From the IMG/VR virus record IMGVR_UViG_3300020048_000016: a DNA stretch of 64,000 nucleotides. One strand, 5' to 3'. Position 1 is the first letter of the stretch, and each line of letters starts with the position of its first letter. Shown piece by piece: positions 3,678 through 63,392 of the stretch. The stretch comes from an uncultured virus (IMG/VR IMGVR_UViG_3300020048_000016) (Duplodnaviria > Heunggongvirae > Uroviricota > Caudoviricetes). A program made the translations under genes and the position numbers. The notes below the pieces were generated by a model that worked only from the letters and a program-made list of their open reading frames with translations, had not been told where the DNA came from and searched no databases.

Positions 3678-3703
3678 GAGTTTAAAAAAAATTAAAAATA
3701 AAA

Positions 3704-17829: not shown

Positions 17830-17863
17830 TTTTTTATTACTATATTTGTAAAAACTCTATATT

Positions 17864-20326: not shown

Positions 20327-20361
20327 TAAAACTTCTTTAATTCATATTTAATATATAAAAT

Positions 20362-21098: not shown

Positions 21099-21134
21099 AA
21101 AACTATTTATATATAAATGCAAAGTCCCTAAACA

Positions 21135-21162
21135 AAAAAACCAGTCTTTTGACTGGTTTTTT
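21135..21162 (-). terminator. intrinsic terminator
   Basis: AAAAAACCAGTC-TTTTT-GACTGGTTTTTT. Confidence 0.8.
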
Positions 21163-21164
21163 AT

Positions 21165-21785: not shown

Positions 21786-21837
21786 AACATATATATTAAA
21801 TATTCTTTTTATAAAAACACATTTTAATATATATGTT

Positions 21838-22152
21838 ATGAAAACATTTAACGATTTAATATTTGTAGTTAGACCAATAGATCCTGCAGTTTATATGGAA
21901 GCACTTAAACAATATCCCACACCTTGGGAAACAGATTATGGTATCTGGTCAAACATTATTTTTGATAATGGTTATGGTGCTCGTGTAGCAAAAGGACCTC
22001 AAACAATTGGTGGACCTGATGGTTTATACGAAGTAAACGTTTTAGATAGTTCTAGTAAAGTTCTAGAAACAAGTTCAGTAATGACTGGCTCAGTTGGTAA
22101 CTTAGATGAAGCAGGTGTTACAGATTATATGCAAAGAATACAATCTATTTAA
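21838..22152 (+). CDS. conserved phage hypothetical protein
   Basis: FDNGYGARV...GGPDGLYEV motif; TAATATATA at 21825. Confidence 0.6.
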   Translation: MKTFNDLIFVVRPIDPAVYMEALKQYPTPWETDYGIWSNIIFDNGYGARVAKGPQTIGGPDGLYEVNVLDSSSKVLETSSVMTGSVGNLDEAGVTDYMQRIQSI

Positions 22153-22471
22153 TATATTCTCTTATAGCCTTATTTATAGAAGCGATTGTATATTTCTCAC
22201 CCTTTTCCGACTTAAAATCATTAGCAATTTTCCTCATTGCTGTGACTTTTGAACCCATTGGATTTCCTAAATAAACTTGTTTATCATCAACCATAACATA
22301 TCTAGCTATTGATTCTTCATCACCAATTACTTCTTTACCTAGAACCATTTTAGATTTACCAAAAGGAACTTTTCTATCTTTTATCGGATATTCTTTTTTA
22401 AGAAGTTTAATTATTTCTTCTACTTCGTTTTCGTTAGGTTTGTAACCTTCAAATGTCATTATATGTTTCAT
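22145..22471 (-). CDS. putative internal head protein
   Basis: MKHIMTFEGY leader; TAATATATA at 22477. Confidence 0.55.
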   Translation of the reverse strand: MKHIMTFEGYKPNENEVEEIIKLLKKEYPIKDRKVPFGKSKMVLGKEVIGDEESIARYVMVDDKQVYLGNPMGSKVTAMRKIANDFKSEKGEKYTIASINKAIREYIK

Positions 22472-22488
22472 AGTAATATATATTATTT

Positions 22489-22947
22489 TTAATCGTAAAA
22501 ATTCTGTCTAAAATACAACTTAATAAATTGATATTTTATGTCTGGTAATGTTTTTAATAATAAATCACTATTATTAAGATTTGCATTAAATTTATATCTT
22601 TCATTAGTTAATGTATCACCATTATTAGTAATATTTCCATTATTAGTATCGTTTGGTCTACCATTCTCACGATCTGGACTAAAAGTAAGCACAGTATAAA
22701 GTCCGATTCTTTCGTCTTCATATAAATATGATAACAAATGTTTTATTCTCGATTCAATATCCTCTAATTTAAAATATTTATTAGATTCTATTTTTATATC
22801 ATAGTAACCTTCCATATCATAATAAGCATCTACCTCAATAGTGAAACCTGAATCCTCTAAATCTCTTAGAATTTCTTCACACTCAGATACTATATCTTTT
22901 ATTTTTAAAGAGTATGTCCAATTTTCAAATAATTTGATATACTTCAT
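22489..22947 (-). CDS. putative internal head protein
   Basis: MKYIKLFENW leader. Confidence 0.55.
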   Translation of the reverse strand: MKYIKLFENWTYSLKIKDIVSECEEILRDLEDSGFTIEVDAYYDMEGYYDIKIESNKYFKLEDIESRIKHLLSYLYEDERIGLYTVLTFSPDRENGRPNDTNNGNITNNGDTLTNERYKFNANLNNSDLLLKTLPDIKYQFIKLYFRQNFYD

Positions 22948-23615
22948 TACTTAACTTTTATTTTATAAGCAGACTTAACGGTTACACCTTTAAGATCTGG
23001 TATATTCTCAACCTTTTGTGCACCAACACTTTTAACTAATTCATCAGATATACCAGTTAATGATGTGAATGCAATTGTACCACCTACACCAGCAACTTTT
23101 GATTCCATTCTAGATGCAGTATTAACAGCATTACCAAAGAAGTCTCTTAAATTAGCATTCTGTATGTTATACGATTTCTCTTGCATATTACCTTGACAAA
23201 TACCAACTCTTAATGGTAATTTTTCACTCAATAATATTTTCTTTGCGCAATTTATAGCATTTTGTAATGAACCTTTTCCTTTACCAAAATAAATCATAAA
23301 TGCATCACCTATAGTCTTAACTACGAATCCATTATATTGTTTAGCAATACTATTCATTAATTCGAAATGTTTGTTTAATTGCAAAGACATAGTTTGTGCA
23401 TCGTCAGACCATAACTTTGAAGATCCAACAACATCAGTAAACATAATTGATGGTGCTACATTCTCAGCATTTGCTTGAGCATTTTCACCATCTTTTGCAT
23501 TCTCTTGCTCATCCGTAAGAAGACGACCTGATCTTTCTTTTGTTGGCTTTGCTTCTACTGGTTTTTGAGCAACTTCTTCTGCTTCAAATAACTTAAATTT
23601 TACTATATTTTTCAT
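22947..23615 (-). CDS. class III adenylate/guanylate cyclase with capsid-targeting-like leader
   Basis: IMFTDVVGSS, VVKTIGDAFM, LRVGI, DFFGNAVNTASRME; leader MKNIVKFKLFEAEE. Confidence 0.9.
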   Translation of the reverse strand: MKNIVKFKLFEAEEVAQKPVEAKPTKERSGRLLTDEQENAKDGENAQANAENVAPSIMFTDVVGSSKLWSDDAQTMSLQLNKHFELMNSIAKQYNGFVVKTIGDAFMIYFGKGKGSLQNAINCAKKILLSEKLPLRVGICQGNMQEKSYNIQNANLRDFFGNAVNTASRMESKVAGVGGTIAFTSLTGISDELVKSVGAQKVENIPDLKGVTVKSAYKIKVK

Positions 23616-24019
23616 TTTACAAATTTTAATTTTACTGAAACTATTGTATCATAATCCGATATTAATGAATCATATCCACTTTCAGAGTATTCAAAATACG
23701 AAGTGTCTTCACTACCTTCTTCATCCCAGTAATTTAAAAGTAATATTATATGATCAAATTCCTCTGTTGAATTAATATAACTTGCCATTTGTTTTATAAC
23801 AGGTTTTATCTCTTCTAAATTCTCTTCTGTGAAGAAATTACCATTTTTCCATATTCTAGCATCTATACTTAATAATTCATTATTTCTATATGTGAATTTA
23901 CTAACATCATATAGATATTCGGGATTGTCTTGTCTTAATGGAATTAGCATATCTTTTAATTCCTCAATTATTTCATTATAGTCTTCTAAACTTTCATTGA
24001 ATCTTTTTAAATATTTCAT
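23612..24019 (-). CDS. putative internal head protein
   Basis: True start is MKYLKRFNES at 24019; TAATATATA at 24024-24032. Confidence 0.6.
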   Translation of the reverse strand: MKYLKRFNESLEDYNEIIEELKDMLIPLRQDNPEYLYDVSKFTYRNNELLSIDARIWKNGNFFTEENLEEIKPVIKQMASYINSTEEFDHIILLLNYWDEEGSEDTSYFEYSESGYDSLISDYDTIVSVKLKFVK

Positions 24020-24056
24020 AGTGTATATATTAAATATTTTTATTATATTTGTATTT

Positions 24057-24980
24057 ATGAATAGAATCGGATATTGTTGTATAGCCATCGGATGTAATGA
24101 TGGTAAGAAAAAGAAAGATTATATCACTGTTAATCGTGGTATGGTTAAAAAAACATTTTTAGCAAAAGGTATTCCTTATGTTTCGGAACTCGTTATAGAG
24201 AACCTTAAAGATACTCTAGAAGTATTGAAATATAATCTATCTAAAAAAATCTATGTATATAGAATGTCTAGTGATTCATTTCCCTGGATGTCCGAGTATG
24301 AGTTTGCGGATCTACCAAACTTTAACTATATACAAAGTCTTTTAATCAAAATAGGAAACTTTGTAAAAGAAAATGATCTTAGAGTATCATATCATCCAGG
24401 TCCTTTCAATGTTTTAGCAAGTGAAAATCAATCTGTAGTTGAAAAAACAATTTATGAATTGAATAAACACGCAGAACTTATGGATCTTATGGGTTTAGAT
24501 AAATCACACTACTATCCGATAAATATTCACATCAATACTACAAAACCAACCAGAGAAGAAGCAGCGCAGAGATTTGTTGATAACTTTGCATTATTAACTG
24601 ACTCTTGTAAGAGTAGATTAACATTAGAGAATGATGATAGTCCAAATCAATACTCAGTTAAAATATTACACGACTTAGTTTATACTAAAGTCGGTATTCC
24701 AATTGTATTTGATCAACATCACTTCAACTATGGTCCACAAGATCAAAGTATGGAAGAAGCACTTAGATTAGCACATTCAACTTGGAATGTAAAACCTATG
24801 ACACATATTAGTTCACCTAAAATATTAGAAGATGCTACTGGAAGAGCAACCGCACATGCAGATTACATTTATGAAGAAATTGAAACTTTTGGCCTTGAAT
24901 TTGATACAGAAATTGAAGCGAAGGCTAAAGACCTTGCCGTCATTAAGTATAGAAGTCAATTCCAATTACTCAAAGGCTAG
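24057..24980 (+). CDS. uvsE: UV damage endonuclease UvsE/UVDE
   Basis: RIGYCC, YRMSSD.FPW, HPGPFNVLAS, LENDD, VFDQHH, HADYI, EAKAKD. Confidence 0.93.
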   Translation: MNRIGYCCIAIGCNDGKKKKDYITVNRGMVKKTFLAKGIPYVSELVIENLKDTLEVLKYNLSKKIYVYRMSSDSFPWMSEYEFADLPNFNYIQSLLIKIGNFVKENDLRVSYHPGPFNVLASENQSVVEKTIYELNKHAELMDLMGLDKSHYYPINIHINTTKPTREEAAQRFVDNFALLTDSCKSRLTLENDDSPNQYSVKILHDLVYTKVGIPIVFDQHHFNYGPQDQSMEEALRLAHSTWNVKPMTHISSPKILEDATGRATAHADYIYEEIETFGLEFDTEIEAKAKDLAVIKYRSQFQLLKG

Positions 24981-42535: not shown

Positions 42536-43492
42536 ATGAAGAAATTATTATTAGCAACGATATTTGTTTTGACGAGTATCTTTGCATTTACACAAACTTA
42601 TTTAGTAGACCAACATTTTAGTGCAGTAGCACCTACTGGGTGGAGTTCAACATCTAGTGTGTGGAGTTTTGTTAGAAATGAATCAGCGACGGGTAACTAT
42701 CGTAATGTTTATGATGCTACTAAATATTCTGCTAGATTTTCATCTGCTGCAAACGGTAATTCTATTTATATTTATATTCCAATTAACTTTAAAATGGATA
42801 GTTTATATAATATCACATTTTACACAAAACGTGCTTGTTCAGTTAGAGTTTATACAAATGAATTACCTAATCAAAATACTCTTTTAACAAAAGATTCAAC
42901 AACAAATTCTAGTTGTAATTCTAATTGGAATACGTGGTATCAGTGGTCATTTACCATACAATCAACTTATACGGGAGCTGGATATTTTCAAATTGGAATA
43001 AAGACCGTATATGGTGGTCCAACATCAGTATATTTAGATGATTTAACTATAACCGAATCATCTCCAGTTGGATTACCGATAGAGCTTTTATATTTCAAAG
43101 TAATGAGAGATAACCTATTGAATAAACTATTTTGGTCTACAGCATCAGAAAATAACAACGACTTCTTTACGATTGAAAAATCAATAAATGGTGGTGATTG
43201 GGAAATTATTGATAGACAAAATGGTGCAGGAAACTCTTCTATACAACTAAACTATTACTTTTTGGATCAAAGTGTGGAGAGTTTAATAAACTACTACAAA
43301 CTAAAACAAACAGATTATGATGGTAAGTTTAAATACTCTGATATAATCTCTATTGATAATAGAATGAACTCTAAGTCTAAAGAGATTGAGAAGATTACAA
43401 ACATACTTGGTCAGGAAGTCGACCTAACATATTATAGAGGTCTCGTCATACTATACTACACGGATGGAACTTCTGGAAAAATTATAAAATAA
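42536..43492 (+). CDS. Bacteroidota-type secreted protein (T9SS-cargo-like)
   Basis: Signal peptide; LPIELLYF..WSTASENNNDFFTIEKS..YYKLKQTDYDG Ig-like module; ITNILGQEV tail. Confidence 0.75.
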   Translation: MKKLLLATIFVLTSIFAFTQTYLVDQHFSAVAPTGWSSTSSVWSFVRNESATGNYRNVYDATKYSARFSSAANGNSIYIYIPINFKMDSLYNITFYTKRACSVRVYTNELPNQNTLLTKDSTTNSSCNSNWNTWYQWSFTIQSTYTGAGYFQIGIKTVYGGPTSVYLDDLTITESSPVGLPIELLYFKVMRDNLLNKLFWSTASENNNDFFTIEKSINGGDWEIIDRQNGAGNSSIQLNYYFLDQSVESLINYYKLKQTDYDGKFKYSDIISIDNRMNSKSKEIEKITNILGQEVDLTYYRGLVILYYTDGTSGKIIK

Positions 43493-47416: not shown

Positions 47417-47457
47417 TTATTTGTTTTATTAAATAAAATAACTATATTTGCATATAG

Positions 47458-47533
47458 ATCCGAGTGCGTAATGAGGGGCGGTCCCAAATCCTATATGGTT
47501 GACTTAGGGTGAGTTCGATTCTCACCTCGGATC
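47458..47533 (+). tRNA. tRNA-like RNA, anticodon arm non-canonical or undetermined
   Basis: Acceptor ATCCGAG/CTCGGAT (extendable to 11 bp); T-arm GTGAG-TTCGATT-CTCAC; directly after the promoter at 47420-47450. Confidence 0.55.
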
Positions 47534-47540
47534 TATTTAA

Positions 47541-47620
47541 GCGGGTAGAGCATAATGCAACGTGGAAGTTGCACCACCCTCTAAAAGTGATAGCATCGGG
47601 TTCAAATCCTGCTACCCGCA
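47541..47620 (+). tRNA. atypical tRNA with CUA (amber suppressor) anticodon
   Basis: GCGGGTAG/CTACCCGC acceptor; TGCAAC/GTTGCA D-like stem; loop CT-CTA-AA (47579-47585) on a 3-bp CAC/GTG stem; GGTTCAAATCC T-loop; no encoded CCA. Confidence 0.6.
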
Positions 47621-49556: not shown

Positions 49557-51235
49557 ATGGTAATTAAGAACATCCACGAGAAATTATTGAATGGTATCCA
49601 GCAAATGCTTATCGATACGAAAATAAATTTACCTTATTATGGTGAATTCAACTTACACGTGAGTTTCCACGAACAAGATTCGATTGGTACTTGTGCAGTG
49701 AATATGACACCTAAGGGTATGAACTTCTACTACTCACCAAAGTTCTTGGCTGATATGTCACAAAAAGAAGTAAACTTTATCACTCTTCACGAGGATTTTC
49801 ACTTACTTTTTAATCACCCTAAGAGAACGGTATCTGGTCAATACGATCATAAAATGTCTAACATTGCTCAGGATATGATCATCAACCACATCATCTGGGA
49901 AGATATTCCACGAGCATTCGTAGAGATTCCTAAGTCACCAGATGGTAAAAATATGGCTTTATTCGTACCAAAAGAATACAAAGGTAAACTTATCTTCGAA
50001 GAGTTGTACGAGTGGTTGAAAGATGAGAAAGAGAAGTGGGAGAAAGAGAAGAAACAAAATTGCTCTTGTAAATCTTGTAACGGTACTGGTAAAAAACAAG
50101 ACCAACAAGGCCAACAACAACAAAAAGGTCAAGGTCAACAACCAGGTGATGGCCAAGAGCAAGGTGACGGTCAAGGTGGTCAAGGTCAAGAACCAGGCGA
50201 AGGTCAAGGACAAGAGCAAGGAGATGGTCAAGGAGACGGACAAGGACAAGGTAGTGGTCAAGGTCAACAACCAGGTCAAGGACAAGGTGGTGGTCAAGGT
50301 CAAAGCGAACTAGGTCAAGAGCCTTGCCCAGATTGTGGTGGCTCTGGCTCAGAAGGTGGTAAAGACTCAACGGGAAAACCATCTTATGGTCCCTATGGTC
50401 AGAACCCATCTAAAGATGGTGATGCTATCGACACTTGGTCAAAAGAGCAAATCTTCGAGAATATGGAAAACAACAATGGTGAGTACTTAGATAAACACAT
50501 TGGTGATGAAGTACCAGAAGAGATGCGTGATGCGATGGTTAAAGATGTTATGGATAGATTAGCAGCACGTGGATTAGCGTCTGGTAACCTTGAAACTACA
50601 CTTAACAAGTTACGTAAGAAAAGAAAAGATTACTTGAAAGAAATCAAGAGAGCTGTTTCAAATATGATCTTTGGTACAAATAAAGTAAGAACTATTGTAA
50701 AACCAAATCGTAAACAGATTTCTGGTATCAAAGGAACACGAAAAGTTAAGACCGCAATAAATGTTATCTTAGATACATCAGGTTCTATGGGTAATACTTT
50801 TGAGAAAGTACTTTCTTACATCTACCGAAATGATATCGAAGTGAATATGATCCAAGGTGATACTGATGTTAAATGGGTTGACAAGTTTATGGACAAAAAG
50901 AAAATTGAACGAATGGTGATTGCTGGACACGGTGGTACTGTTCTTCAACCATCTGTAAACTATGTTGTTGAGCACTTTAACAAGTACAATACTGTGATCT
51001 TGAGTGACGGTTATTGCGACACTCTTGACCTAAGTAAGTTAAAAGGTAAAGTGTTGGTAATATCGATTGGTGTTAAAATACCAATTGGTAGATCAAATGG
51101 TCGAGTTNNNNNNNNNNAGACTTAAGTAAACTTAAAGGAAAGGCTTTGATTATCTCAATCGGCGTTAAAGTACCACTAGGTAGAACAAATGGTAGAGTTA
51201 AACAAATCTGTGTTGACATCGACAGCGATAGATAA
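49557..51235 (+). CDS. DUF2201-type metallopeptidase-VWA protein (MoxR partner); C-terminus crosses a gap
   Basis: LHEDFH (HExxH), NIAQD.IIN, LDTSGSM (MIDAS), GHGGT, ILSDGY; G/Q-rich linker flanked by CKSCNGTG and CPDCGGSG. Confidence 0.85.
51108..51117. other. scaffold gap (10 N)
   Basis: N-run. Confidence 1.
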
Positions 51236-54746: not shown

Positions 54747-55925
54747 GTGAGAATAATAACTAAATACGAAAAATTCTTGGAAACTACTAAAACAATGTTG
54801 GATGTCATTCCACAATCAGTTAAAGATCTTCATAAATTATTTGAAGCAAATGGTAAGAAATTATACCTTGTTGGTGGATCAGTTCGTGATTTCTTAACCG
54901 GTGATAAACCAAAAGATTTCGACTTAGCTACCGATGCTCTTCCAGATGAAGTATTAGATATACTTGATAACAAATTCAGAACTAACTTACAAGGTAAAGC
55001 GTTCGGTGTTGTTGTTGTTTTCACAAAAGATCAACCAGAGGGTATGGAGATCGCTACATTCAGAGAAGATATTAGCAAAGGTAGAAACCCAGAAGTTAAA
55101 CTAGGTGTTACAATAGAAGATGATGTTAAACGAAGAGATTTAACATACAATGGTCTATTCTTTGATTTAGATACTAATGAGATCGTAGATTTAGTTGGTG
55201 GTCGTAAAGACTTAGAAGATGGTATAACTAGAACTATTGGAGATCCTATTGAGAGATTTGAAGAAGATAGTTTAAGAATTTTGAGAGCATTTCGTTTTGC
55301 ATCAAGATACGAACATCCTTTACACGAAGATACCGTTAAAGCAATTGAGAAAAGAAAACATTTAGAGAATATCGATCCAGAGACGGGAGATATGAAAAGA
55401 ATATCACAAGAAAGAATATTTGAAGAATTACAAAAAGCGTGGAAACAAGCGAAGGATTACAATTTCTACTTGAACTTAATAACTAAGTTTGATATGTGGG
55501 ATCAAGTATTTCCAGGTGCTGATATAAACACAGAGTTAGTAGATAGCAAAGATTTTATCGTTGTACTTGCTAACCTTTTCAAAAAAGAAAAGACTACCGG
55601 TTTAGAGAAAACATTAGTTCAAAACTTTAAAATTGATATAGATAAAGCAAAGAAGATAGTATTTTTACTTGATTTATCAAACTTTAATCAACCAATTGAA
55701 GTATTTGATCTATACAAAAAGAAAGTAGCATCTGGTGTAAAAGATTCAACTTTATTAGAATGGTTGAAAGTTACTGGTAATAATAGTAACTTATTAACTA
55801 AATTTATTGACTACAAACCAACAGTATCATCACAAGAATTGATGGAACAAGGGTTTAAAGGTAAAGAGTTAGGTTTAAAGATCAAAGAGTTAGAAGCAGA
55901 GAGTTTTAATAATCTATTAAAATAA
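54747..55925 (+). CDS. cca: CCA-adding tRNA nucleotidyltransferase / poly(A) polymerase family (class II)
   Basis: LVGGSVRD, DFDLAT, EIATFR, RRDLTYN, RFEEDSLRILRAFRF, SQERI. Confidence 0.9.
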   Translation: MRIITKYEKFLETTKTMLDVIPQSVKDLHKLFEANGKKLYLVGGSVRDFLTGDKPKDFDLATDALPDEVLDILDNKFRTNLQGKAFGVVVVFTKDQPEGMEIATFREDISKGRNPEVKLGVTIEDDVKRRDLTYNGLFFDLDTNEIVDLVGGRKDLEDGITRTIGDPIERFEEDSLRILRAFRFASRYEHPLHEDTVKAIEKRKHLENIDPETGDMKRISQERIFEELQKAWKQAKDYNFYLNLITKFDMWDQVFPGADINTELVDSKDFIVVLANLFKKEKTTGLEKTLVQNFKIDIDKAKKIVFLLDLSNFNQPIEVFDLYKKKVASGVKDSTLLEWLKVTGNNSNLLTKFIDYKPTVSSQELMEQGFKGKELGLKIKELEAESFNNLLK

Positions 55926-55931
55926 TATCAA

Positions 55932-56831
55932 ATGAAAAAAATGAAACCTGAGGTTGAATGGAATATCAAAATTCAATCTCAAACAAATGTACCAGAATCT
56001 GTAAATAAAGATGAACTGATAAGTGCCATATTTTCTATAAATAGAGATGAGAATCAACAAAGAATAAATGAATTCAATCAGAGTATGAGAAATCAATTTA
56101 CTGATGAAGTTAGCAAATGGCAAAACAATAAAAAAGAAGAAATACTAGACAAACTAGTTAATAAATTAAATATTGAGTTTGTTGATGATCAAGTAATTCT
56201 TGTGTGCGATTTCAATTGTAACTTTCCTGGTGATTGGAATAAAATAGATGTTATTGAATGGTCTGAAGGATTTAATAAATTATATGTTGAATATCTTATG
56301 GCTGGTATGGATGATATCGTATCTAAGCACAAGAAGGGTGAGTCTGATAATTATAATGATCATAAAGATTTAAGAGAAACATTTGAAAGAATTGTAAAAA
56401 AACAGAAATTCAATGTTACTAAATTAGGAAACTATGTTCCGGTTGTAGAAATTGGAGATTTTCTAATAACTATCAAAGGAAAAGCAAAGACTGATTATCC
56501 AATTAAATGTCGTTTGAATGGTGTAAGCGATGAAACAGATTTCGTAAGTTATATGGAACGCGACCTTTCCGATGTTCTTAAAGAAGGTTATATGCGTTTT
56601 GTATATGAAAATGACGAACTATTCACCGTTAATGAATATATTTCAACCAGAGAGTTAACAGACGAAGAAATGGAAGAACTTATTGATTACACACAAGGAC
56701 AGTGGTCTGATGGTATCGGTGAAAGTTTTGAACAAAGACCTATTATGGTTTCTGGTGATGAAGTTTATATCAGCCCTTGGTATAATGGTCAAAAAGTAGT
56801 ATATTCGCAAGTAGAGAAACAAATTAATTAA
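55932..56831 (+). CDS. conserved hypothetical protein
   Basis: C-terminal GQWSDGIGESFEQRPI motif. Confidence 0.6.
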   Translation: MKKMKPEVEWNIKIQSQTNVPESVNKDELISAIFSINRDENQQRINEFNQSMRNQFTDEVSKWQNNKKEEILDKLVNKLNIEFVDDQVILVCDFNCNFPGDWNKIDVIEWSEGFNKLYVEYLMAGMDDIVSKHKKGESDNYNDHKDLRETFERIVKKQKFNVTKLGNYVPVVEIGDFLITIKGKAKTDYPIKCRLNGVSDETDFVSYMERDLSDVLKEGYMRFVYENDELFTVNEYISTRELTDEEMEELIDYTQGQWSDGIGESFEQRPIMVSGDEVYISPWYNGQKVVYSQVEKQIN

Positions 56832-56861
56832 ATTTTAATTTTTCATTTAGATATATAGTTT

Positions 56862-57602
56862 ATGATTTATTATATTACACACTTAAAAGATGTACTTGGT
56901 AACAATTATTTAGGTATTGATATACCAAAAACCGTTGTCGAGCCATTCTTAAATGAACTTAAAGATATAGTCGGTGATGATTATGATGAGTTTTTAAAAC
57001 TTAAAGAAGATAGAGATGGTGCTAATTATCACATTACGGTAATTAATGTTATGGATTATAATAAACTTTCTAAACAAATGGGAGTAGATAAGTTTGTTAA
57101 TTCATTAGATCCTATTTTTAAATATCCAGTTGATGATTTGAGATTATTGGGTATTGGTAGAGCTCAAAGAAATGAGAATATAGCATTCTTTACTATTTGT
57201 CAATCAGATAAGTTAGAAGCAATAAGAAAAAGATTTGAACTAGCAGATCATGACTTTCACATTACACTAGGTTTCAAATATAAAGATGTATTTGGAGTTA
57301 GAAAGAATGAAATATTTAAAAAAGAATCAAAATTTCTTCAACTTTTAAGACAAGAGTTTTATAAAAACGAAGACTTTAACTTCATTAGAAAAATAGTTAA
57401 TTACGAATTAGATCCAAAAGCAGAGATCATTCCAGTTAAATTAACTGAGACAACTATTAAAGTAAAATGTGAGGGTTACTACCTAGACATTGGATATTCA
57501 GAAGAGGGAGAATGTCTTAGGATATATACGAAATATTCAATTGAAGATGATCTTCCAAGATTATCAGAAACAGAAATTGCAAAAATACTTAACAAAAAAT
57601 AA
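56862..57602 (+). CDS. 2H phosphoesterase
   Basis: Two HxT motifs: YHITVI and FHITLGF. Confidence 0.82.
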   Translation: MIYYITHLKDVLGNNYLGIDIPKTVVEPFLNELKDIVGDDYDEFLKLKEDRDGANYHITVINVMDYNKLSKQMGVDKFVNSLDPIFKYPVDDLRLLGIGRAQRNENIAFFTICQSDKLEAIRKRFELADHDFHITLGFKYKDVFGVRKNEIFKKESKFLQLLRQEFYKNEDFNFIRKIVNYELDPKAEIIPVKLTETTIKVKCEGYYLDIGYSEEGECLRIYTKYSIEDDLPRLSETEIAKILNKK

Positions 57603-57607
57603 AATTT

Positions 57608-57895
57608 ATGGAGACTATGATATTACATAACTACTACACATTAGACGAGTGTACTAATAAAAAAGGAATTATCAAAAAACTTAAAGAACTTGAGCAAGAA
57701 GGTAAAATAGAATATGATATTGAGAAATCAACTGATGTTGTTACATTAGAAGATCTAGATTTGGAAGATGATGATATCGAAGAGTTGATTGAACTTTTTG
57801 AAAAGAATGATGTTTATCCATATCTTGATAAAGATGATGAAGATGAAGATGGTTATGATGACAACGGTTATTATGATGAAGATGAAGATTATTAA
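57608..57895 (+). CDS. acidic hypothetical protein
   Basis: D/E-rich tail. Confidence 0.55.
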   Translation: METMILHNYYTLDECTNKKGIIKKLKELEQEGKIEYDIEKSTDVVTLEDLDLEDDDIEELIELFEKNDVYPYLDKDDEDEDGYDDNGYYDEDEDY

Positions 57896-57906
57896 TAAAT
57901 AATACT

Positions 57907-58101
57907 ATGAATAACGATTACGAAAGATATGACTTTTGGTTCAGAGAAACCAATCAGGGAAATAAGGGAAAGGATACTAGATCTATGGATAAACTTGTTG
58001 AATCAAACAGATTGTTTGACGAGAAGAATCAAAAAGGATTTAAATATAATTCTGATGATAGAAGCGAAGATAATCCTAACATTACTCAATTTTTCATTTA
58101 A
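57907..58101 (+). CDS. hypothetical protein
   Basis: 64 aa ORF before the terminator. Confidence 0.5.
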   Translation: MNNDYERYDFWFRETNQGNKGKDTRSMDKLVESNRLFDEKNQKGFKYNSDDRSEDNPNITQFFI

Positions 58102-58107
58102 AAAATT

Positions 58108-58136
58108 AAAGCCACTCAAATTGAGTGGCTTTTTTT
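58108..58136. terminator. bidirectional terminator
   Basis: AAAGCCACTCAA-A-TTGAGTGGCTTTTTTT. Confidence 0.85.
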
Positions 58137-58545
58137 ATAAAATTGTATATGTAGTGTAAAAGAATTCTTGATATGTACCTGGTAATGCAGCGGTGCTATC
58201 CCAATCTATATTATCACTGAATTCTAAACCATATTCATCTTTCAATATTTTTTTAAATCTATTAAATTTACCTAATAAACCCTGTGTGAATGAAAATTCA
58301 GAAAATGGATCATCATCATATACCGAATTTACAATAAAATCTATTCTATTTTTACCTGAACTAATCTCAAAATAAAAAATATGATCATCCAATTCATCTA
58401 AATCATTAGACCACCATTCGAATAAATGATTATCAAATTCTTCTGAGAAACAATTAAAAAATATATCTTTTATATCTTCAATCATATCCTCTGTTATCTT
58501 AGGTTGAGTTTGATTACTCTCATTAAATCTTTTTAAATACTTCAT
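58135..58545 (-). CDS. putative internal head protein
   Basis: MKYLKRFNES leader. Confidence 0.55.
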   Translation of the reverse strand: MKYLKRFNESNQTQPKITEDMIEDIKDIFFNCFSEEFDNHLFEWWSNDLDELDDHIFYFEISSGKNRIDFIVNSVYDDDPFSEFSFTQGLLGKFNRFKKILKDEYGLEFSDNIDWDSTAALPGTYQEFFYTTYTIL

Positions 58546-58546
58546 A

Positions 58547-58954
58547 TTAATAATATCCTACGTTATTTTCTTCTTCTGGGTAAACAGACTTAACCATACG
58601 CTTAAGTTCATCACAGAATTCAAGTGTTTCTTCTACAAGACGACCAACTCCTCTACCTAATATAGATATTGTGTAAAATATTCTATCTTTTTCAGTAACA
58701 AGTCTAGTTGGACCATTAGACGTACTAACACCATACTGATAATCTATAGAATCACTAGTATTGCTATGATGTATTATACACAAAGTCTCAGTTGGTCTAC
58801 CTATTAATATTCTTAATGATTTACCTTGATCTAAGTAATCAATAGCCTTATCTTTAATATCTTCTATTAGATCCCAATTAGCATTATCATGAACAGATTT
58901 TATCCATTCTTCTCTTGCTCCTAAACTTTCATTATATTTCTTTAAATACTTCAT
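58547..58954 (-). CDS. putative internal head protein
   Basis: MKYLKKYNES leader. Confidence 0.55.
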   Translation of the reverse strand: MKYLKKYNESLGAREEWIKSVHDNANWDLIEDIKDKAIDYLDQGKSLRILIGRPTETLCIIHHSNTSDSIDYQYGVSTSNGPTRLVTEKDRIFYTISILGRGVGRLVEETLEFCDELKRMVKSVYPEEENNVGYY

Positions 58955-59472
58955 ATTAATCCTTTACCTTCTTTTGTTTGTATTGATATAATAAACTCTT
59001 TTATGCCAATACCTGATGATAAAAGCTCTTTACCTGTTGTTTCGCTACCTTCTTTACTATAAAGATAACCGAATCTACCAGGACCATCTAATAATTCATC
59101 AATATCAACATTATTATTCTTATTTAAGAACTCTATATAATTATCTCTAGCCAATCTATCAAGATATACTATTTTAATTCTTCTTATTTCATATTCAAAA
59201 CCATCTAGTTCTATTTGTTCTAATATTTGTTTAGTTTTACTTTTTATAAGATCTATTTTTATATATCCTCTGTTTTTAGAAGAATCTCTGCGTATATCAA
59301 TATCAATGTAATCCTTTTCATCTTCAAAAGATCTCTCTGATCCAACTACATCAACCGCATGATCATCTGTTAAATCAGCAACCATAAGTTTAATATCATC
59401 AACTAAATGTTTGAAGTTTGGATCACCAAACTCATTACTTTCAAATAATTTGAAACTCTTTATTATTTTCAT
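58951..59472 (-). CDS. putative internal head protein
   Basis: MKIIKSFKLFES leader; TAATATATA at 59477-59485. Confidence 0.55.
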   Translation of the reverse strand: MKIIKSFKLFESNEFGDPNFKHLVDDIKLMVADLTDDHAVDVVGSERSFEDEKDYIDIDIRRDSSKNRGYIKIDLIKSKTKQILEQIELDGFEYEIRRIKIVYLDRLARDNYIEFLNKNNNVDIDELLDGPGRFGYLYSKEGSETTGKELLSSGIGIKEFIISIQTKEGKGLI

Positions 59473-59508
59473 AATGTATATATTAATATTAATAACTATA
59501 TTTGCAAA

Positions 59509-59967
59509 ATGATTATAATATTTCTAGATATTGATGGTGTTCTAAGAACTCATAAGAGTGATTTAGAATGGTCTCTTAAATTAGGAGAACCAATACCAGA
59601 TATATGTAAAAGATATTTTAGTAAAACAGCAGTTAGCAATCTAAATGAAATTCTTGGTTGGTCAAGAGCAAAGATTGTAGTTACATCAACCTGGCGAACA
59701 TTGGTCAGTTTTGATGATCTTAAAAAGATATTTAAAGAAAATGGTGTAATTTCAGAAGTGGTTGATATTACATCAATTGGTATAAACAGAGGTGAAGAAA
59801 TTGAACAGTATATCTCTGATAATAATATAGTTGACTATGTTGTAATAGATGATAATGTAAGTGATATCATCAATGTAATTAATAAAGAAAGAGTTGTAAA
59901 AATAGATTCAAAAATCGGTCTAGAAGATGAAAATATAATAGATCATGTCTTGGATATTTTACTTTAA
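59509..59967 (+). CDS. HAD phosphatase (Swiss-army-knife RNA-repair-like)
   Basis: IFLDIDGVL, IVVTSTWR, RGEEI, YVVIDD. Confidence 0.85.
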   Translation: MIIIFLDIDGVLRTHKSDLEWSLKLGEPIPDICKRYFSKTAVSNLNEILGWSRAKIVVTSTWRTLVSFDDLKKIFKENGVISEVVDITSIGINRGEEIEQYISDNNIVDYVVIDDNVSDIINVINKERVVKIDSKIGLEDENIIDHVLDILL

Positions 59968-60608: not shown

Positions 60609-61235
60609 ATGGCAACAAATTTATTCAGCAAGGCTAAGAAAGCAGCACCTGCTAAGAAGGTATCCGCAAAGGATAAGAAAGTTCGAATCGTAGTAGAAGA
60701 TCCAGATTTCTTCGAAAAAGTAGAAAAATTAGAAGAGTTACAAGGTACTCTTAAAACCGCAAAAGCAAAAGCAGATCTAATCTCTGATGAGTTGAAAGAT
60801 CTTGCTAAAGACAAATGGGCTGACTTATACGAAGAAACGAATAAGAACCCAGAGTCTGTCATGATCGTTCAAGATAGCGATACTGGTGACACAGCACAGT
60901 TTATGTTTGTACCAACAGACAAATACATTACTATCAATGAAGATAGAGCAGAAGAGTTGAAAGATACTTATGGTGATGATATCGTAGAAGAGAAAACAAC
61001 ATTCTCTTTTGATGAGACGATGATTGAGAAGTATGGTGAGGTTTTATCTGAATTAATCGAGAATAGTGATGAGATCGAAGATAAAGATAAAGAAAAGATC
61101 ATCAAAGCAACAACTACATACTCTGTAGCGAAAGGAACTATTAATAAGTTCAAAGAATATGGTGAGGTAATTGAGATGATGGAGACGGTTAAACCAGTTG
61201 TTGCAATTAAAAATGTAGAAATTATCAAAGGTTAG
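60609..61235 (+). CDS. hypothetical protein
   Basis: 208 aa; K/A-rich N-terminus. Confidence 0.65.
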   Translation: MATNLFSKAKKAAPAKKVSAKDKKVRIVVEDPDFFEKVEKLEELQGTLKTAKAKADLISDELKDLAKDKWADLYEETNKNPESVMIVQDSDTGDTAQFMFVPTDKYITINEDRAEELKDTYGDDIVEEKTTFSFDETMIEKYGEVLSELIENSDEIEDKDKEKIIKATTTYSVAKGTINKFKEYGEVIEMMETVKPVVAIKNVEIIKG

Positions 61236-61335
61236 TTGTTTTATTAATAATTATTACTATATTTGTAAAACAATAACGATTGTAAGTAGAGAAGTTGGCA
61301 ATTCGCTGTAAAACCCTGGTTTCTTCTTTCAATTT

Positions 61336-61411
61336 GATTAGTTGGGAAAGTTGGTAATCCGATCGGTGGGTAACTACCGATAGATCATAGGTTCGAGTCC
61401 TGTACTGATCA
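61336..61411 (+). ncRNA. tRNA-shaped RNA with a GNRA tetraloop instead of an anticodon loop
   Basis: GATTAGT/ACTGATC acceptor; GGA/TCC D-stem with GG loop; ATCGGTGG-GTAA-CTACCGAT; ATAGG-TTCGAGT-CCTGT T-arm. Confidence 0.7.
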
Positions 61412-61482
61412 CAAAAATAAAAATAAAAAAAAGTTAGGTTATTAAAGAATTATTACTAACTTTGTAAAACAAACAGAAAGAT

Positions 61483-61965
61483 ATGACAACAGAAGAATTA
61501 GAGTTAGCATTTGAAAACGCACCTACGATAGATGCTAAGTCAGATATACTTAATAGTGCAATTATTAAACAAATAGATAATTTTGATAGTGATGAATTTG
61601 CTAAATTAGATGAAAGTATCAAAAACTTGTTTGATGATTTGAAAAATCTTAAAATTGAAAAGGCTCAAGAAGAAAATGAATTTTGTAATTCAGAGATAGA
61701 GAGCGGTAATTTAGATCTTTATAGATGTATTAATTCAGTTGATGATTGCGTTTTTGGTGAAACATACTATGTGAAAATTGATGATGTTGCAGCAGATTAT
61801 AAGTCTAAGGGTTTTGATAAGTTAAGTGATGAAATGTCTGAGTACATTAATAAGATTGAGCCTACTATAACGATCTATTGTGATAAAGGTATCGGTACAT
61901 TAAAGTTCAGAAAGGTTTTCACAAAAGAATTTGCATTATTTAATGAGTATTTTATAAAAGATTAA
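61483..61965 (+). CDS. hypothetical protein
   Basis: After TAACTTTG at 61457. Confidence 0.6.
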   Translation: MTTEELELAFENAPTIDAKSDILNSAIIKQIDNFDSDEFAKLDESIKNLFDDLKNLKIEKAQEENEFCNSEIESGNLDLYRCINSVDDCVFGETYYVKIDDVAADYKSKGFDKLSDEMSEYINKIEPTITIYCDKGIGTLKFRKVFTKEFALFNEYFIKD

Positions 61966-61975
61966 ATTGATAATT

Positions 61976-62149
61976 ATGGATAAATTAACTGAAATCGGTA
62001 AAAAATTACCAAACGACCAGGATCTAGGCAAGTATGTTAGATCATTAATCAGAGAGATAGAATCAAATGAGATCAAAGATATTGTAAAAGAATATCCAAA
62101 TGATTTCGACTTAGGTAAACAACTAAGAAAAAAAATAAATCAAAAATAA
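61976..62149 (+). CDS. small protein with a duplicated PNDxDLGKxxR motif
   Basis: PNDQDLGKYVR / PNDFDLGKQLR. Confidence 0.55.
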   Translation: MDKLTEIGKKLPNDQDLGKYVRSLIREIESNEIKDIVKEYPNDFDLGKQLRKKINQK

Positions 62150-62240: not shown

Positions 62241-63392
62241 ATGGAGAATAATGTAGAAGTTGCCGCTGCGCAAGAAAATGGTATGATGCCACAATGGATG
62301 TTAGACAAATTGGATACTCTAACAGAGAAAGAAAGAGAGTACTTGGCAATTATGTGGCCTAAGTATGGTGTTTTATTCATAACATCGAAACCTGGTGTTG
62401 CGAAGTCTGCAATCGGATTGTCAATTGCAACTAAGTTAGGATTTAGATACCTTGATATGCGTTTATCAATGTCTGATGAGTCCGATTTCAAATACCCATA
62501 CTTAGAGGACTTAACACAAGATGGTCAAACTTTTAAAGTTTCTGGCTATGCTGTTCCTAAATGGGCTTTCGAATCTAATCAAAGACCAACTATCATTCAC
62601 TTTGAAGAGTTGAACAGAGCCCCACAATTCGTAAGAAACGCGGCTTTACAAATCTTACTTGAACGCGAAATTGGTGATTTCAAATTCAACGATAACGTAC
62701 TAATGATGGCTTCTGGTAACTTAGGTGACGAAGATGGTACAGACGTAGAAGAGTTCGATTCTGCTTTGAACAACCGTTTAATTCACGTAGATCACGTATT
62801 ATCAGTTGATGAGTGGTTGAAAAACTTCGCAGTAGATAAATGTCACCGCTTAATCGTGAGCTACATCAAAACTCACCCTGAGCAAATCTACAAAACGAGT
62901 GATAATATGAAGGGTTACGCAACACCGCGTTCTTGGACTATGCTTTCTAAGTTCATCACTCAAAACTATGGTAAAGAATCATCTGCAAGAGATTTCTTAC
63001 CATTGTTGAGAAAAGTGGCTCACGGGTATGTTGGAAACTCAGCAATGAAGTTCTTACAATATTGCGAAGATATGTTGAACATCTCAATCCAAGATGTAAT
63101 CAACAACTACGATGGAGTTAAGAAAGACTTGGCTAAATACAACCGAGACAAAAACTCTGAGTTAATCCAGTCATTGAAAGAGATTGACATCTCTACATTG
63201 AATGAGAAACAATTAGGTAACATCGTTAAATTCCTTGGTGGAGTTGGAGATGATGAGAAAACTGCTTACTTGTTGTGGATCTTAGACAACGTGGCGAACA
63301 TCGGCGAACCTAAGATGAAGAAGTTCTTACTTCAATTCGAAGACTTGTTGAGAACGATCAAAAAGATCAACAAACCTACTGCTAAGAAGTAA
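62241..63392 (+). CDS. MoxR-like AAA+ ATPase
   Basis: SKPGVAKS (variant Walker A), IIHFEELNRA, ASGN, ALNNRL, ATPRSW. Confidence 0.88.
   Translation: MENNVEVAAAQENGMMPQWMLDKLDTLTEKEREYLAIMWPKYGVLFITSKPGVAKSAIGLSIATKLGFRYLDMRLSMSDESDFKYPYLEDLTQDGQTFKVSGYAVPKWAFESNQRPTIIHFEELNRAPQFVRNAALQILLEREIGDFKFNDNVLMMASGNLGDEDGTDVEEFDSALNNRLIHVDHVLSVDEWLKNFAVDKCHRLIVSYIKTHPEQIYKTSDNMKGYATPRSWTMLSKFITQNYGKESSARDFLPLLRKVAHGYVGNSAMKFLQYCEDMLNISIQDVINNYDGVKKDLAKYNRDKNSELIQSLKEIDISTLNEKQLGNIVKFLGGVGDDEKTAYLLWILDNVANIGEPKMKKFLLQFEDLLRTIKKINKPTAKK

What the first reader, a model, noticed from the sequence alone, without database searches (positions are those of the whole stretch)
61336..61411. tRNA mimic whose anticodon loop is replaced by an 8-bp stem with a GUAA tetraloop
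The acceptor, D and T arms are canonical, but the anticodon arm is ATCGGTGG-GTAA-CTACCGAT, so it cannot decode. It lies downstream of a TAnnTTTG promoter (61258) and has no encoded CCA. The fully paired replacement stem argues for selection rather than decay. Inference: a decoy for tRNA-targeting toxins or anticodon nucleases, a synthetase/EF-Tu/RelA modulator, or a processing signal.
Basis: partly seen in the sequence, partly recalled or inferred. Interest (0 to 1): 0.7.

Follow-up and report, generated by a model that had tools for sequence, protein, structure and literature searches.

The report
Anticodon-less tRNA look-alike in a megaphage
A freshwater giant phage carries a well-formed tRNA-shaped RNA gene whose codon-reading loop is zipped into a hairpin, so it almost certainly cannot decode and more likely serves as a cutting signal for tRNA-trimming enzymes, or is a recently disabled tRNA.

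Summary
Window 61336-61411 (+) is a real tRNA-shaped gene: ARAGORN calls tRNA-??? and Rfam tRNA scores 48.2 bits, E 1.5e-9. The anticodon arm is 5 bp plus a 10-nt loop. That loop zips into 8 bp (one G-U) capped by a GUAA (GNRA) tetraloop, with pair probabilities of 0.99.

The window is a Bacteroidetes-type megaphage related to the 634- and 642-kb records LR745206 and LR756502. The body is tRNA-Pro-like: its 17-nt D arm matches 39 of 42 IMG/VR hits, all tRNA-Pro. The acceptor stem is not Pro-like.

No relative carries this element. The same slot is a tRNA hot spot in relatives, holding Met, Arg, Leu, Trp and others. In two about 98%-identical strains from other studies, the only changes across 421 nt are three in the hairpin. 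All three keep pairing (U-A to U-G, G-C to G-U) or the GNRA loop (GUAA to GCAA).

The element has its own phage promoter box and sits about 6 nt behind a conserved, covarying 42-nt RNA motif.

Best reading (0.4): a non-decoding tRNA-like processing handle. Main rival (0.3): a young pseudogene. Expression is untested.

The parts
61246..61273 (+). Phage promoter box with the Bacteroidetes-type -7 element TATATTTG (61258-61265). It would drive the leader plus the tRNA-like RNA.
   Evidence: A 28-nt direct repeat with 61445-61472, 89% identical. The 23-nt box has 4 matches in the window against 0.08 expected, and the other three lie just upstream of ORF starts. That TAnnTTTG is the Bacteroidetes -7 consensus is recalled knowledge.
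61288..61329 (+). Conserved 42-nt leader RNA motif, a three-way junction: P1 AGAAG/CUUCU, P2 GGC-AAUUC-GCU, P3 AAAC-CCUG-GUUU. It ends 6-8 nt before the tRNA-like 5' end.
   Evidence: Also found in L113, L110, L137, L108 (metagenome relatives) and L149, L150 (IMG/VR). In P1, 4 of 5 pairs show double compensatory changes. Model R1 gives a single hit in the window at 61.8 bits. No Rfam family matched.
61336..61411 (+). tRNA-shaped RNA gene. Acceptor 61336-61342 / 61404-61410, D arm 61345-61360, sealed anticodon arm 61362-61381, variable loop 61382-61386, T arm 61387-61403, discriminator A at 61411.
   Evidence: ARAGORN; Rfam tRNA 48.2 bits; direct reading of the sequence.
61362..61381 (+). Anticodon-arm hairpin: 8 bp (one G-U) with the GUAA tetraloop at 61370-61373. 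The only variable part among strains.
   Evidence: Pair probabilities 0.85-0.99 and hairpin alone -10.9 kcal/mol. Natural variants are 61371 T>C, 61376 A>G and 61377 C>T.
61405..61417 (+). CTGATCACAAAAA: the 3' acceptor strand plus trailer. It is identical to the 3' junction of a different structured RNA ('RNA-2') at the same slot in relative L113.
   Evidence: Direct comparison of the printed sequences. Reading it as a remnant of a shared ancestral tRNA(-like) 3' end is inference.
61445..61472 (+). Second copy of the promoter box, serving ORF 61483-61965. There is no terminator between the tRNA-like gene and this box.
   Evidence: Terminator scan of 60900-61700 found 0.
54795..55925 (+). Context: phage CCA-adding enzyme (tRNA nucleotidyltransferase). 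It is the likely maker of the missing CCA end.
   Evidence: PHROG tRNA nucleotidyltransferase, E 4.6e-57. Pfam PolyA_pol head domain, E 1.3e-30. Its action on this RNA is inferred.

Best explanation
The element is a tRNA-derived gene with a tRNA-Pro-type body and a different acceptor stem. It folds into a normal L-shaped tRNA body, but its anticodon loop has been replaced by a closed 8-bp hairpin with a GNRA cap. It therefore cannot read codons.

It is transcribed from its own copy of a phage promoter box, together with a conserved 42-nt structured leader RNA that ends 6-8 nt before it. The most likely mechanism is that host RNase P cuts at 61335/61336. The 3' side is then trimmed and given CCA by RNase Z-type trimming and the phage CCA-adding enzyme.

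On this reading the tRNA shape works as a 'cut here' punctuation mark. It releases the leader RNA with a defined 3' end and separates it from the read-through transcript into the next gene.

Shown: the fold, the sealed arm, the promoter box, the conserved leader, and the structure-preserving strain variants. Inferred: transcription, RNase P and CCA processing, and that processing is the selected function.
For: - It is a real tRNA shape with all elbow and tertiary nucleotides intact: U8, A14, G15/C48, G18G19, A21, G53-C61 and TTCGA.
- The arm is predicted closed: three extra pairs at p=0.99, and -22.9 versus -15.3 kcal/mol for the closed versus open cloverleaf. The hairpin is present in both the MFE and centroid folds.
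- It has a dedicated promoter box identical in 23 of 23 positions to the box in front of the next ORF.
- The leader motif is conserved with compensatory P1 changes in 7 sequences from at least 4 phage lineages. In L150 it lies 3 nt after a tRNA.
- In relatives L106 and L109 a second structured RNA lies 7-8 nt upstream of tRNA-Met. Structured small RNAs abutting tRNA 5' ends therefore recur at this slot.
- Strain variants: X2's 7,919-nt contig has 19 differences in 901 nt, and X4's 928-nt contig has 18 differences in 808 nt. Between 61068 and 61488 they differ only at 61371, 61376 and 61377.
- All three of those changes are in the hairpin. They are U-A to U-G, G-C to G-U, and GUAA to GCAA. The G-U changes keep pairing only in the + strand RNA.
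- By my arithmetic, 3 of 3 changes falling in 20 of 76 nt has p about 0.02, and all three being structure-neutral has p about 0.1.
- The letter at -1 is U, which bacterial RNase P favours (recalled).
- A phage CCA-adding enzyme is encoded 5.4 kb upstream.
Against: - There is no expression or end-mapping data. The one RNA run laid (X20) has no contig over the element, which says nothing either way.
- The element was found only in this lineage at about 98% identity. There were 0 hits in IMG/VR and 0 in GTDB genomes. None of the 43 metagenome loci, the 8 IMG/VR syntenic loci or the two megaphage records carries it.
- The leader motif and RNA-2 also occur with no tRNA beside them (L113, L108, L137). 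A tRNA handle is therefore not required for them.
- The low-diversity block 61068-61488 includes 168 nt of coding sequence. The conservation of the tRNA body may therefore reflect a recent sweep or recombination rather than selection on the RNA.
- Only three substitutions support structural constraint.
Confidence: 0.4

Rival explanations
1. It is a young tRNA pseudogene. On this reading a phage tRNA gene in a fast-turnover tRNA slot suffered an indel in its anticodon loop, is no longer used, and has not yet had time to decay. The closed hairpin is incidental.
For: - The slot downstream of the conserved 208-aa ORF is a tRNA gain/loss hot spot. Relatives hold Met, Arg, Trp, Leu, Tyr, Val or Glu genes there, or nothing. 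tRNAs are called in 16 of 43 metagenome loci, 3 of 8 IMG/VR loci, and L001.
- Other off-pattern tRNA calls occur in such regions, for example L116 with a 6-nt loop in the same slot.
- The element is restricted to strains about 98% identical, too close for decay to show.
- The nearest relatives of the body have normal 7-nt loops.
- Earlier notes of this scan read two similar cases as disabled copies (unchecked leads).
Against: - By my arithmetic, a random 10-nt loop gives three nested pairs plus a GNRA cap about 0.2% of the time.
- Going from a tRNA-Pro-type loop to this one needs several changes, not one indel.
- All three natural substitutions hit the hairpin, none hits the other 56 nt, and all three preserve the RNA structure.
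- The gene keeps a perfect copy of the phage promoter box.
Confidence: 0.3
2. It is a non-decoding tRNA mimic that acts in trans in the conflict over tRNAs. It could be a decoy or sponge for host tRNA-binding toxins or nucleases that recognise the tRNA body or 3' end. Alternatively it could be an RNA partner or substrate of the phage's own RNA-repair and CCA enzymes.
For: - The element lies in an RNA-repair neighbourhood. This includes the CCA-adding enzyme (54795-55925), a 2H 'Swiss Army Knife' phosphoesterase (56862-57602) and a HAD_SAK_2 phosphatase (59509-59967). An Rnl1-type RNA ligase lies at 14353-15579.
- Jumbo-phage RNA repair against anticodon nucleases, and a tRNA-like partner of Ro/TROVE repair platforms, are described in PMC7824862 (passages read).
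- The hairpin is the one fast-changing spot in an otherwise identical 421-nt block, as an arms-race surface might be.
Against: - Relatives keep the same repair genes next to ordinary tRNAs, so the neighbourhood is not specific to this RNA.
- Most known anticodon nucleases read the anticodon loop, which is absent here (recalled).
- No TROVE/Ro60 domain was found among the 89 window ORFs scanned.
- There is no binding or titration evidence of any kind.
Confidence: 0.15
3. It is a working decoder with an expanded anticodon loop, for example a quadruplet or frameshifting tRNA as in ARAGORN's 8-nt-loop reading 'GUAA'. Alternatively it is a tRNA whose loop is trimmed to 7 nt after transcription.
For: - ARAGORN reports a 4-base anticodon.
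- The clade does keep a tRNA-Glu-shaped family with a non-7-nt loop (CUUUUCRG, or 7 bp plus UUUC) across three megaphage lineages, with 9 of 23 pairs compensatory.
Against: - No register of the 10-nt loop has U33 before and a purine after an anticodon.
- Removing any 3 nt that restores U33 leaves a pyrimidine at position 37 (my reading).
- The loop is predicted fully paired.
- The supposed anticodon differs between 98%-identical strains, GUAA versus GCAA.
Confidence: 0.04

Closest known systems
Canonical elongator tRNA (Rfam RF00005), specifically phage tRNA-Pro(UGG) genes
   Same: It has a 7-bp acceptor stem with discriminator A, D and T arms with all elbow nucleotides, and a 5-nt variable loop, and scores 48.2 bits on RF00005. 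The 17-nt D arm is identical to that of 39 tRNA-Pro genes in IMG/VR phages, whose variable loop and T arm are also similar.
   Different: It has a 10-nt, self-paired 'loop' instead of a 7-nt loop with U33 and R37. Its acceptor stem starts G1-C72, whereas all 39 phage tRNA-Pro hits start C1-G72. There is no anticodon.
tRNA-like processing signals: plant mitochondrial t-elements (PMC1920247, seen as search listing and abstract only), and mascRNA and herpesvirus TMER tRNA-like units (both recalled)
   Same: It is a tRNA-shaped, non-decoding module placed directly next to another RNA whose end it could define through RNase P or RNase Z. Here the conserved leader motif ends 6-8 nt upstream.
   Different: Those are organellar or eukaryotic systems with mapped ends. 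Here no ends are mapped, the setting is a phage of bacteria, and the anticodon arm is a neat GNRA hairpin rather than a degenerate region.
tRNA pseudogenes in phage tRNA clusters
   Same: It is tRNA-derived, has a disabled anticodon loop, and lies in a tRNA gain/loss hot spot.
   Different: All stems and tertiary positions are intact, it has its own promoter box, and its natural variants preserve the structure.
tRNA-like domains of bacterial Y RNA (YrlA; PMC4201824 and 10.1101/312249, listings and abstracts only) and of tmRNA
   Same: These are tRNA mimics without a decoding anticodon. YrlA is encoded in RNA-repair operons, and this element likewise lies among RNA-repair genes.
   Different: In YrlA the RNA ends lie at the anticodon side and bind Ro60 (recalled). 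Here the ends form the acceptor stem. No TROVE protein was seen in the window, and no Rfam tmRNA or Y RNA hit was found.
Frameshift-suppressor tRNA-Pro with an 8-nt anticodon loop (Salmonella sufA/sufB type; recalled)
   Same: It is a tRNA-Pro-type body with extra letters in the anticodon loop, which still contains UGGG.
   Different: The loop has 10 nt, not 8. It has no U33/purine-37 frame and is predicted paired.

Membership tests
Canonical tRNA (RF00005) | Score at or above the Rfam gathering threshold, with acceptor, D and T arms | tested here: met
   48.2 bits against 29, model positions 1-71 all matched. ARAGORN also calls it.
Canonical tRNA (RF00005) | 7-nt anticodon loop with U33 and purine 37 flanking a 3-nt anticodon | tested here: not met
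   The loop is 10 nt (UGGGUAACUA) and predicted paired into 3 more bp plus GUAA.
Canonical tRNA (RF00005) | Aminoacylation and use on the ribosome | not testable with these tools
   This needs charging assays or tRNA sequencing.
Phage/bacterial tRNA-Pro | Pro-type D arm and body | tested here: met
   The 17-mer GGGAAAGTTGGTAATCC occurs in 42 IMG/VR loci, 39 of them tRNA-Pro genes.
Phage/bacterial tRNA-Pro | C1-G72 acceptor start and an NGG anticodon in register | tested here: not met
   The element has G1-C72, whereas all 39 tRNA-Pro hits start C...G. UGGG is present in the loop but out of register.
tRNA-like processing signal (t-element type) | Non-decoding tRNA shape placed directly beside another RNA or gene whose end it could define | tested here: met
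   The conserved leader motif (61288-61329) ends 6-8 nt before 61336. No terminator precedes the next gene.
tRNA-like processing signal (t-element type) | Mapped RNase P / RNase Z cleavage at its ends | not testable with these tools
   Only assembled contigs of one RNA run were available, and none covers the element.
tRNA pseudogene | No purifying constraint on the structure | tested here: inconclusive
   3 of 3 natural substitutions are in the hairpin and preserve structure. That is only three events, within a low-diversity block.
Bacterial Y RNA (YrlA) / Ro60 RNP | Ro60/TROVE partner gene, and RNA ends at the anticodon side | tested here: not met
   No TROVE domain was found among 89 window ORFs (the rest of the phage genome was not seen). 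The RNA ends form the acceptor stem.
Expanded-loop (quadruplet) decoder tRNA | 8-nt loop keeping U33 and a purine 3' of the anticodon | tested here: not met
   ARAGORN's 8-nt reading GG-GUAA-CU has G at the U33 position and C at the position-37 place. The 'anticodon' varies between strains.

The most novel reading that the evidence does not exclude
The element belongs to an undescribed class of phage RNAs: tRNA bodies whose anticodon arm is deliberately sealed by a GNRA hairpin. On this reading they act in trans as anticodon-nuclease-proof tRNA mimics. They would titrate or mislead host defence proteins that sense or attack the tRNA body or CCA end, or they would serve as the RNA cofactor of the phage's RNA-repair and CCA module. 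The fast-changing hairpin would be the surface under an arms race.
Probability: 0.15. Interest if true: 0.85.

Novelty: new variant of a known kind. Interest (0 to 1): 0.55.

Why it matters
Phage tRNA genes are usually read as codon-supply or as replacements for tRNAs cut by host defences. A tRNA-shaped gene that cannot decode, yet is promoter-driven and keeps its sealed arm across natural strains, points to a second use of the tRNA fold in phages. That use could be RNA punctuation for small structured RNAs, or molecular mimicry.

The papers I could search do not describe this for phages: searches found nothing, and PMC10690425 mentions only unspecified 'tRNA-like' candidates. Earlier unchecked notes of this scan list several similar cases in unrelated phages, so it may be a recurrent class.

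The case is directly testable with RNase P cleavage, CCA addition and small-RNA sequencing. It also warns annotators that 'undetermined' tRNA calls in phage genomes are not all decoders or junk.

Tried and rejected
- **Direct DNA similarity of 61200-61500 to 50,697 phage records:** no match.
- **First IMG/VR pattern:** it had a miscounted N run and could not have matched even the window. It is void.
- **Hairpin 16-mer in IMG/VR:** 9 loci, none tRNA-like, all in unrelated GC-rich contexts.
- **Pattern for a Pro-type D arm followed by an anticodon arm 1-9 nt too long:** 0 hits in IMG/VR and 0 in GTDB genome contigs.
- **Fuzzy search (up to 2 mismatches) for the element's acceptor strands and hairpin in all held loci:** only chance-like hits.
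- **No whole genome is held for the window,** so the phage's other tRNAs could not be compared.
- **RNA run X20:** contigs cover only the flanking genes, which is no evidence for or against transcription.
- **Rfam on the leader and on the relatives' second structured RNA:** nothing above noise.
- **Flanking proteins:** the 208-aa ORF, the 160-aa ORF and the 299-aa ORF beside the CCA enzyme have no informative Pfam, PHROG or Atlas match.
- **Tiny intron or post-transcriptional trimming:** rejected, because no 3-nt removal restores U33 with a purine at position 37.
- **Y-RNA reading:** rejected on topology and the lack of a TROVE gene in the window.
- **Terminator, on either strand:** rejected. 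The scan found 0, and the A run follows the structure on the + strand.
- **Leader motif copies elsewhere:** model R1 found no further copy in W01, W02, G001 or G002.

Full report
**What the window is**

The window is AT-rich (27-33% GC) and phage-like. It encodes topoisomerase II subunits, a T4 Rnl1-type RNA ligase and a tRNA nucleotidyltransferase. It also encodes a DnaK/DnaJ/GrpE set and many proteins of unknown function. Its CCA-adding enzyme is 71% identical to a stretch of LR745206.1 (634,780 bp) and 48% identical to one of LR756502.1 (642,428 bp), both 'uncultured phage' records. These lengths match the 634- and 642-kb genomes of the 'Mahaphage' clade, predicted to replicate in Bacteroidetes (PMC7162821, passages read). 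That these two records are those genomes is my inference from the lengths. No whole genome is held for the window.

**The observation**

Positions 61336-61411 (+) read as follows:
- acceptor stem GATTAGT/ACTGATC (7 pairs, one U-G), followed by U8;
- a D arm, GGAA-AGTTGGTA-ATCC;
- G26;
- the anticodon arm, ATCGGTGG-GTAA-CTACCGAT;
- a variable loop, AGATC;
- a T arm, ATAGG-TTCGAGT-CCTGT;
- discriminator A, then CAAAAA.

ARAGORN calls 'tRNA-???' with a four-letter anticodon (gtaa). Rfam's tRNA model matches end to end at 48.2 bits (gathering score 29, E 1.5e-9) when 301 nt are searched, with the only irregularity an over-long anticodon loop. The whole-window gathering-mode search missed it. This is a filter effect worth knowing about.

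Only the outer five pairs of the arm correspond to a normal anticodon stem. The other three pairs (U-A, G-U, G-C) and the GUAA cap come from a 10-nt loop. GUAA is a GNRA tetraloop (established knowledge). Thermodynamically the arm is closed:
- the closed cloverleaf scores -22.9 kcal/mol against -15.3 for the open loop;
- the three extra pairs have probability 0.99;
- the hairpin alone scores -10.9 kcal/mol;
- the hairpin is present in both the MFE and centroid folds.

All nucleotides that build the tRNA elbow are present.

**Promoter and leader**

TATATTTG (61258-61265) lies in a 23-nt box that recurs exactly at 61450-61472, 11 nt before the next ORF's ATG. It recurs with three mismatches at 17834 and 49515, each just upstream of an ORF start. 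That is 4 matches against 0.08 expected. No terminator-like site lies between 60900 and 61700.

Between the box and the tRNA-like gene lies a 42-nt motif (61288-61329). I found this motif again in four metagenome relatives (L113, L110, L137, L108) and in two IMG/VR phages (L149, L150). Its outer helix covaries (AGAAG/CUUCU, GCGAG/CUCGC, UGAGG/CCUCA), with 4 of 5 P1 pairs showing double changes. The two inner hairpins keep their stems while their loops vary.

A covariance model of the motif hits the window once (61.8 bits). Among five other records it hits only the one the seed came from. Rfam has nothing for it. It is a small, real, unnamed structured RNA, and it ends 6-8 nt before the tRNA-like 5' end.

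**Where the tRNA body comes from**

The 17-nt D arm occurs in 42 IMG/VR loci. Of these, 39 are tRNA genes with a proline anticodon loop, and many also share the AGATC variable loop and the T arm. All 39 start C1...G72, whereas the element starts G1...C72, and its anticodon stem is unrelated to theirs. The body is therefore tRNA-Pro-like, but the acceptor stem is not.

**Relatives**

The gene upstream (208 aa, 60609-61235) marks a conserved slot.
- In LR745206 a normal tRNA-Met(CAU) sits about 75 nt behind the homologous stop codon.
- In IMG/VR, 3 of 8 syntenic loci have tRNAs (Met, Arg, Trp) and 5 have none.
- In 43 metagenome loci (best 81% protein identity), 16 carry tRNA calls of seven isotypes plus one undetermined call with a 6-nt loop. 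None is Pro and none is this element.
- The two megaphage records carry 68 and 56 tRNA-model matches.

The slot is thus a tRNA gain/loss hot spot, and the element is confined to one narrow lineage. Pattern scans for Pro-type bodies with over-long anticodon arms found nothing in IMG/VR or in GTDB genomes.

The slot also holds structured RNAs. In L113 and L108 the leader motif is followed by a second structured RNA of about 105 nt. In L106 and L109 that second RNA lies 7-8 nt upstream of tRNA-Met. The 13 letters CTGATCACAAAAA at the element's 3' end recur at the 3' junction of that second RNA in L113. This hints that the ancestor of both lineages had a tRNA(-like) gene with this acceptor strand. 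That is inference.

**Natural variants**

The stretch 60609-62000 is held, at least in part, by 20 listed runs from 14 studies, all aquatic or freshwater by label. Four were laid.
- X1 is identical and may be the source sample.
- X2 has a 7,919-nt contig with 19 differences in 901 nt.
- X4 has a 928-nt contig with 18 differences in 808 nt.

Between 61068 and 61488 these two contigs differ from the window at only three places:
- 61376 A>G (both runs), turning U-A into U-G;
- 61377 C>T (X4), turning G-C into G-U;
- 61371 T>C (X4), turning GUAA into GCAA, still GNRA.

All three lie in the 20-nt hairpin. None lies in the other 56 nt of the element, the leader or the promoter. The wobble changes keep pairing only for the + strand RNA. 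By my arithmetic, three of three in the hairpin has p about 0.02 if changes fell evenly over the element. All three being structure-neutral has p about 0.1.

There are caveats. This is only three events. The quiet block also covers 168 nt of coding sequence, so a recent sweep or exchange could explain the conserved flanks. The RNA run X20 has no contig over the element, which is no evidence either way.

**Context**

The element lies among RNA-repair genes: the CCA-adding enzyme (54795-55925), a 2H 'Swiss Army Knife' phosphoesterase (56862-57602) and a HAD_SAK_2 phosphatase (59509-59967). An Rnl1 ligase lies further off at 14353-15579. PMC7824862 (passages) describes such modules in jumbo phages as counter-measures to anticodon nucleases. 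It also notes Ro/TROVE repair platforms with a tRNA-like partner. No TROVE domain was found in the 89 window ORFs, and relatives keep the same enzymes beside ordinary tRNAs.

**Interpretation**

It is close to certain that this is a tRNA-derived gene that cannot decode. There is no usable anticodon register, the arm is closed, and the 'anticodon' letters vary between near-identical strains.

Whether it is kept for a function is less sure. I put this at about 0.6, based on the intact body, the private promoter, the neat GNRA closure and the structure-preserving variants.

Among functions, I favour a processing handle (0.4 overall). RNase P cutting at 61335/61336 would give the conserved leader RNA a defined 3' end and cut it free from read-through into the next gene. 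The phage CCA enzyme would finish the 3' end. This matches the recurrent placement, at this slot, of small structured RNAs directly in front of tRNAs. The fact that the leader and the second RNA also occur without any tRNA weakens it.

The rivals are:
- a young pseudogene (0.3);
- a trans-acting mimic in the tRNA conflict or repair system (0.15);
- an expanded-loop decoder (0.04).

**Comparison with what is known**

The closest named things are:
- canonical tRNA and phage tRNA-Pro (membership fails on the anticodon loop and the first acceptor pair);
- tRNA-like processing signals such as plant mitochondrial t-elements (it works like them, but ends are unmapped);
- phage tRNA pseudogenes;
- YrlA and tmRNA tRNA-like domains (different topology).

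My literature searches (with passages in 61, 68, 86) found no description of sealed-anticodon tRNA look-alikes in phages. Supplements were not opened. Earlier notes of this scan list five similar GNRA-sealed cases in other phages, read as cut signals, and two read as disabled copies. These are unchecked AI notes that raised my prior but are not independent evidence.

My own scan of all held loci for tRNA shapes with an anticodon arm of at least 7 bp and a 4-nt loop found only this element and a tRNA-Glu-shaped family. That family is conserved across three megaphage lineages, with 9 of 23 pairs compensatory. This shows that non-canonical anticodon arms can be maintained in this clade.

**Verdict**

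The feature is real. It is most likely a non-decoding tRNA-like RNA, so a new variant of a known kind. Interest is moderate to good, pending expression and processing data.

Noticed in passing
window 61288-61329 (+); also L113 3125-3166, L110 1641-1682, L137 463-504, L108 about 2868-2911, L149 586-627 (-), L150 about 584-627 (-): An unnamed 42-nt three-way-junction RNA motif with an invariant core TTGGCAAT..GC.GTAAAAC and a covarying outer helix. It is found after stop codons and next to tRNA genes in several phages. It has no Rfam match and a single copy in the window.
   Followed up: partly
L113 about 3175-3275; L108 about 2915-3015; L109 about 3160-3265; L106 about 3650-3760: A second conserved structured RNA of about 105 nt, with core GGAGTAG.CCAGAAACGTACTGG.CGACGCCTCC, a variable inner hairpin, and two CCUC segments competing for one GGAG. 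It lies in the same slot. In L106 and L109 it lies 7-8 nt upstream of tRNA-Met. It has no Rfam match.
   Followed up: partly
L096 2971-3059 (LR745206), L038 1501-1595 and L039 (IMG/VR megaphages), L103 602-674 (LR756502): A tRNA-Glu-shaped gene family whose anticodon arm is 7 bp plus UUUC (or an 8-nt loop CUUUUCRG). It is conserved across three megaphage lineages with 9 of 23 pairs compensatory. Two members carry a 16-22-nt insertion in the D arm. It could be a sealed mimic or a quadruplet decoder.
   Followed up: partly
window 47541-47620 (+) and 47457-47534 (+): Two more odd tRNA-like genes lie behind a TATATTTG promoter at 47443. One scores 36.2 bits on Rfam tRNA, has a loop CUCUAAA (a CUA, amber-suppressor-like anticodon), a weak anticodon stem and 11 extra D-loop letters, and is missed by default ARAGORN. 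The other is called only at relaxed ARAGORN settings, as tRNA-Arg(CCT)-like, and has a possible G-1 opposite C73.
   Followed up: partly
window 61292-61305 versus 61348-61361: The leader motif and the D arm of the tRNA-like gene share a 14-mer at 12 of 14 positions (AAGTTGGCAATTCG versus AAGTTGGTAATCCG). This could be chance, or a hint that the leader motif is itself tRNA-derived.
   Followed up: no
window 54795-59967 and 14353-15579: An RNA-repair gene set: CCA-adding enzyme, 2H-SAK phosphoesterase, HAD_SAK_2 phosphatase and an Rnl1-type ligase. No kinase was recognised. The 299-aa ORF at 55932-56831, between the CCA enzyme and the 2H enzyme, has no match anywhere.
   Followed up: no
window 8537-9595 (-), 10969-11424 (-), 15891-17786 (+): The phage encodes its own DnaJ, GrpE and Hsp70/DnaK chaperone set.
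   Followed up: no
window 18401-24088: A cluster of nucleotide and NAD-conflict genes: NUDIX, a 5'-nucleotidase, a microbial PARG and a class III nucleotide cyclase. A MoxR-type AAA_5 ATPase lies at 62241-63392 and a DUF2201 metallopeptidase/VWA protein at 49557-51125.
   Followed up: no
L096 1337-1424 (LR745206 419836-419923): An 88-nt class II, Tyr-like tRNA whose anticodon arm is a palindrome. It reads as 6 bp plus UUGUAA or 8 bp plus UGUA, and ARAGORN gives 'tRNA-?(gt)'. This is another non-7-nt loop in a relative.
   Followed up: no
window 42687-42702 (+): A near copy (3 mismatches) of the hairpin core, CGACGGGTAACTATCG, lies inside ORF 42536-43492. About 0.02 matches were expected by chance.
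   Followed up: no
whole window, Rfam search: Gathering-mode cmscan of the 64-kb window missed a 48-bit tRNA match that the same model finds when 301 nt are searched. Off-pattern tRNA-likes can be lost to the speed filters.
   Followed up: yes
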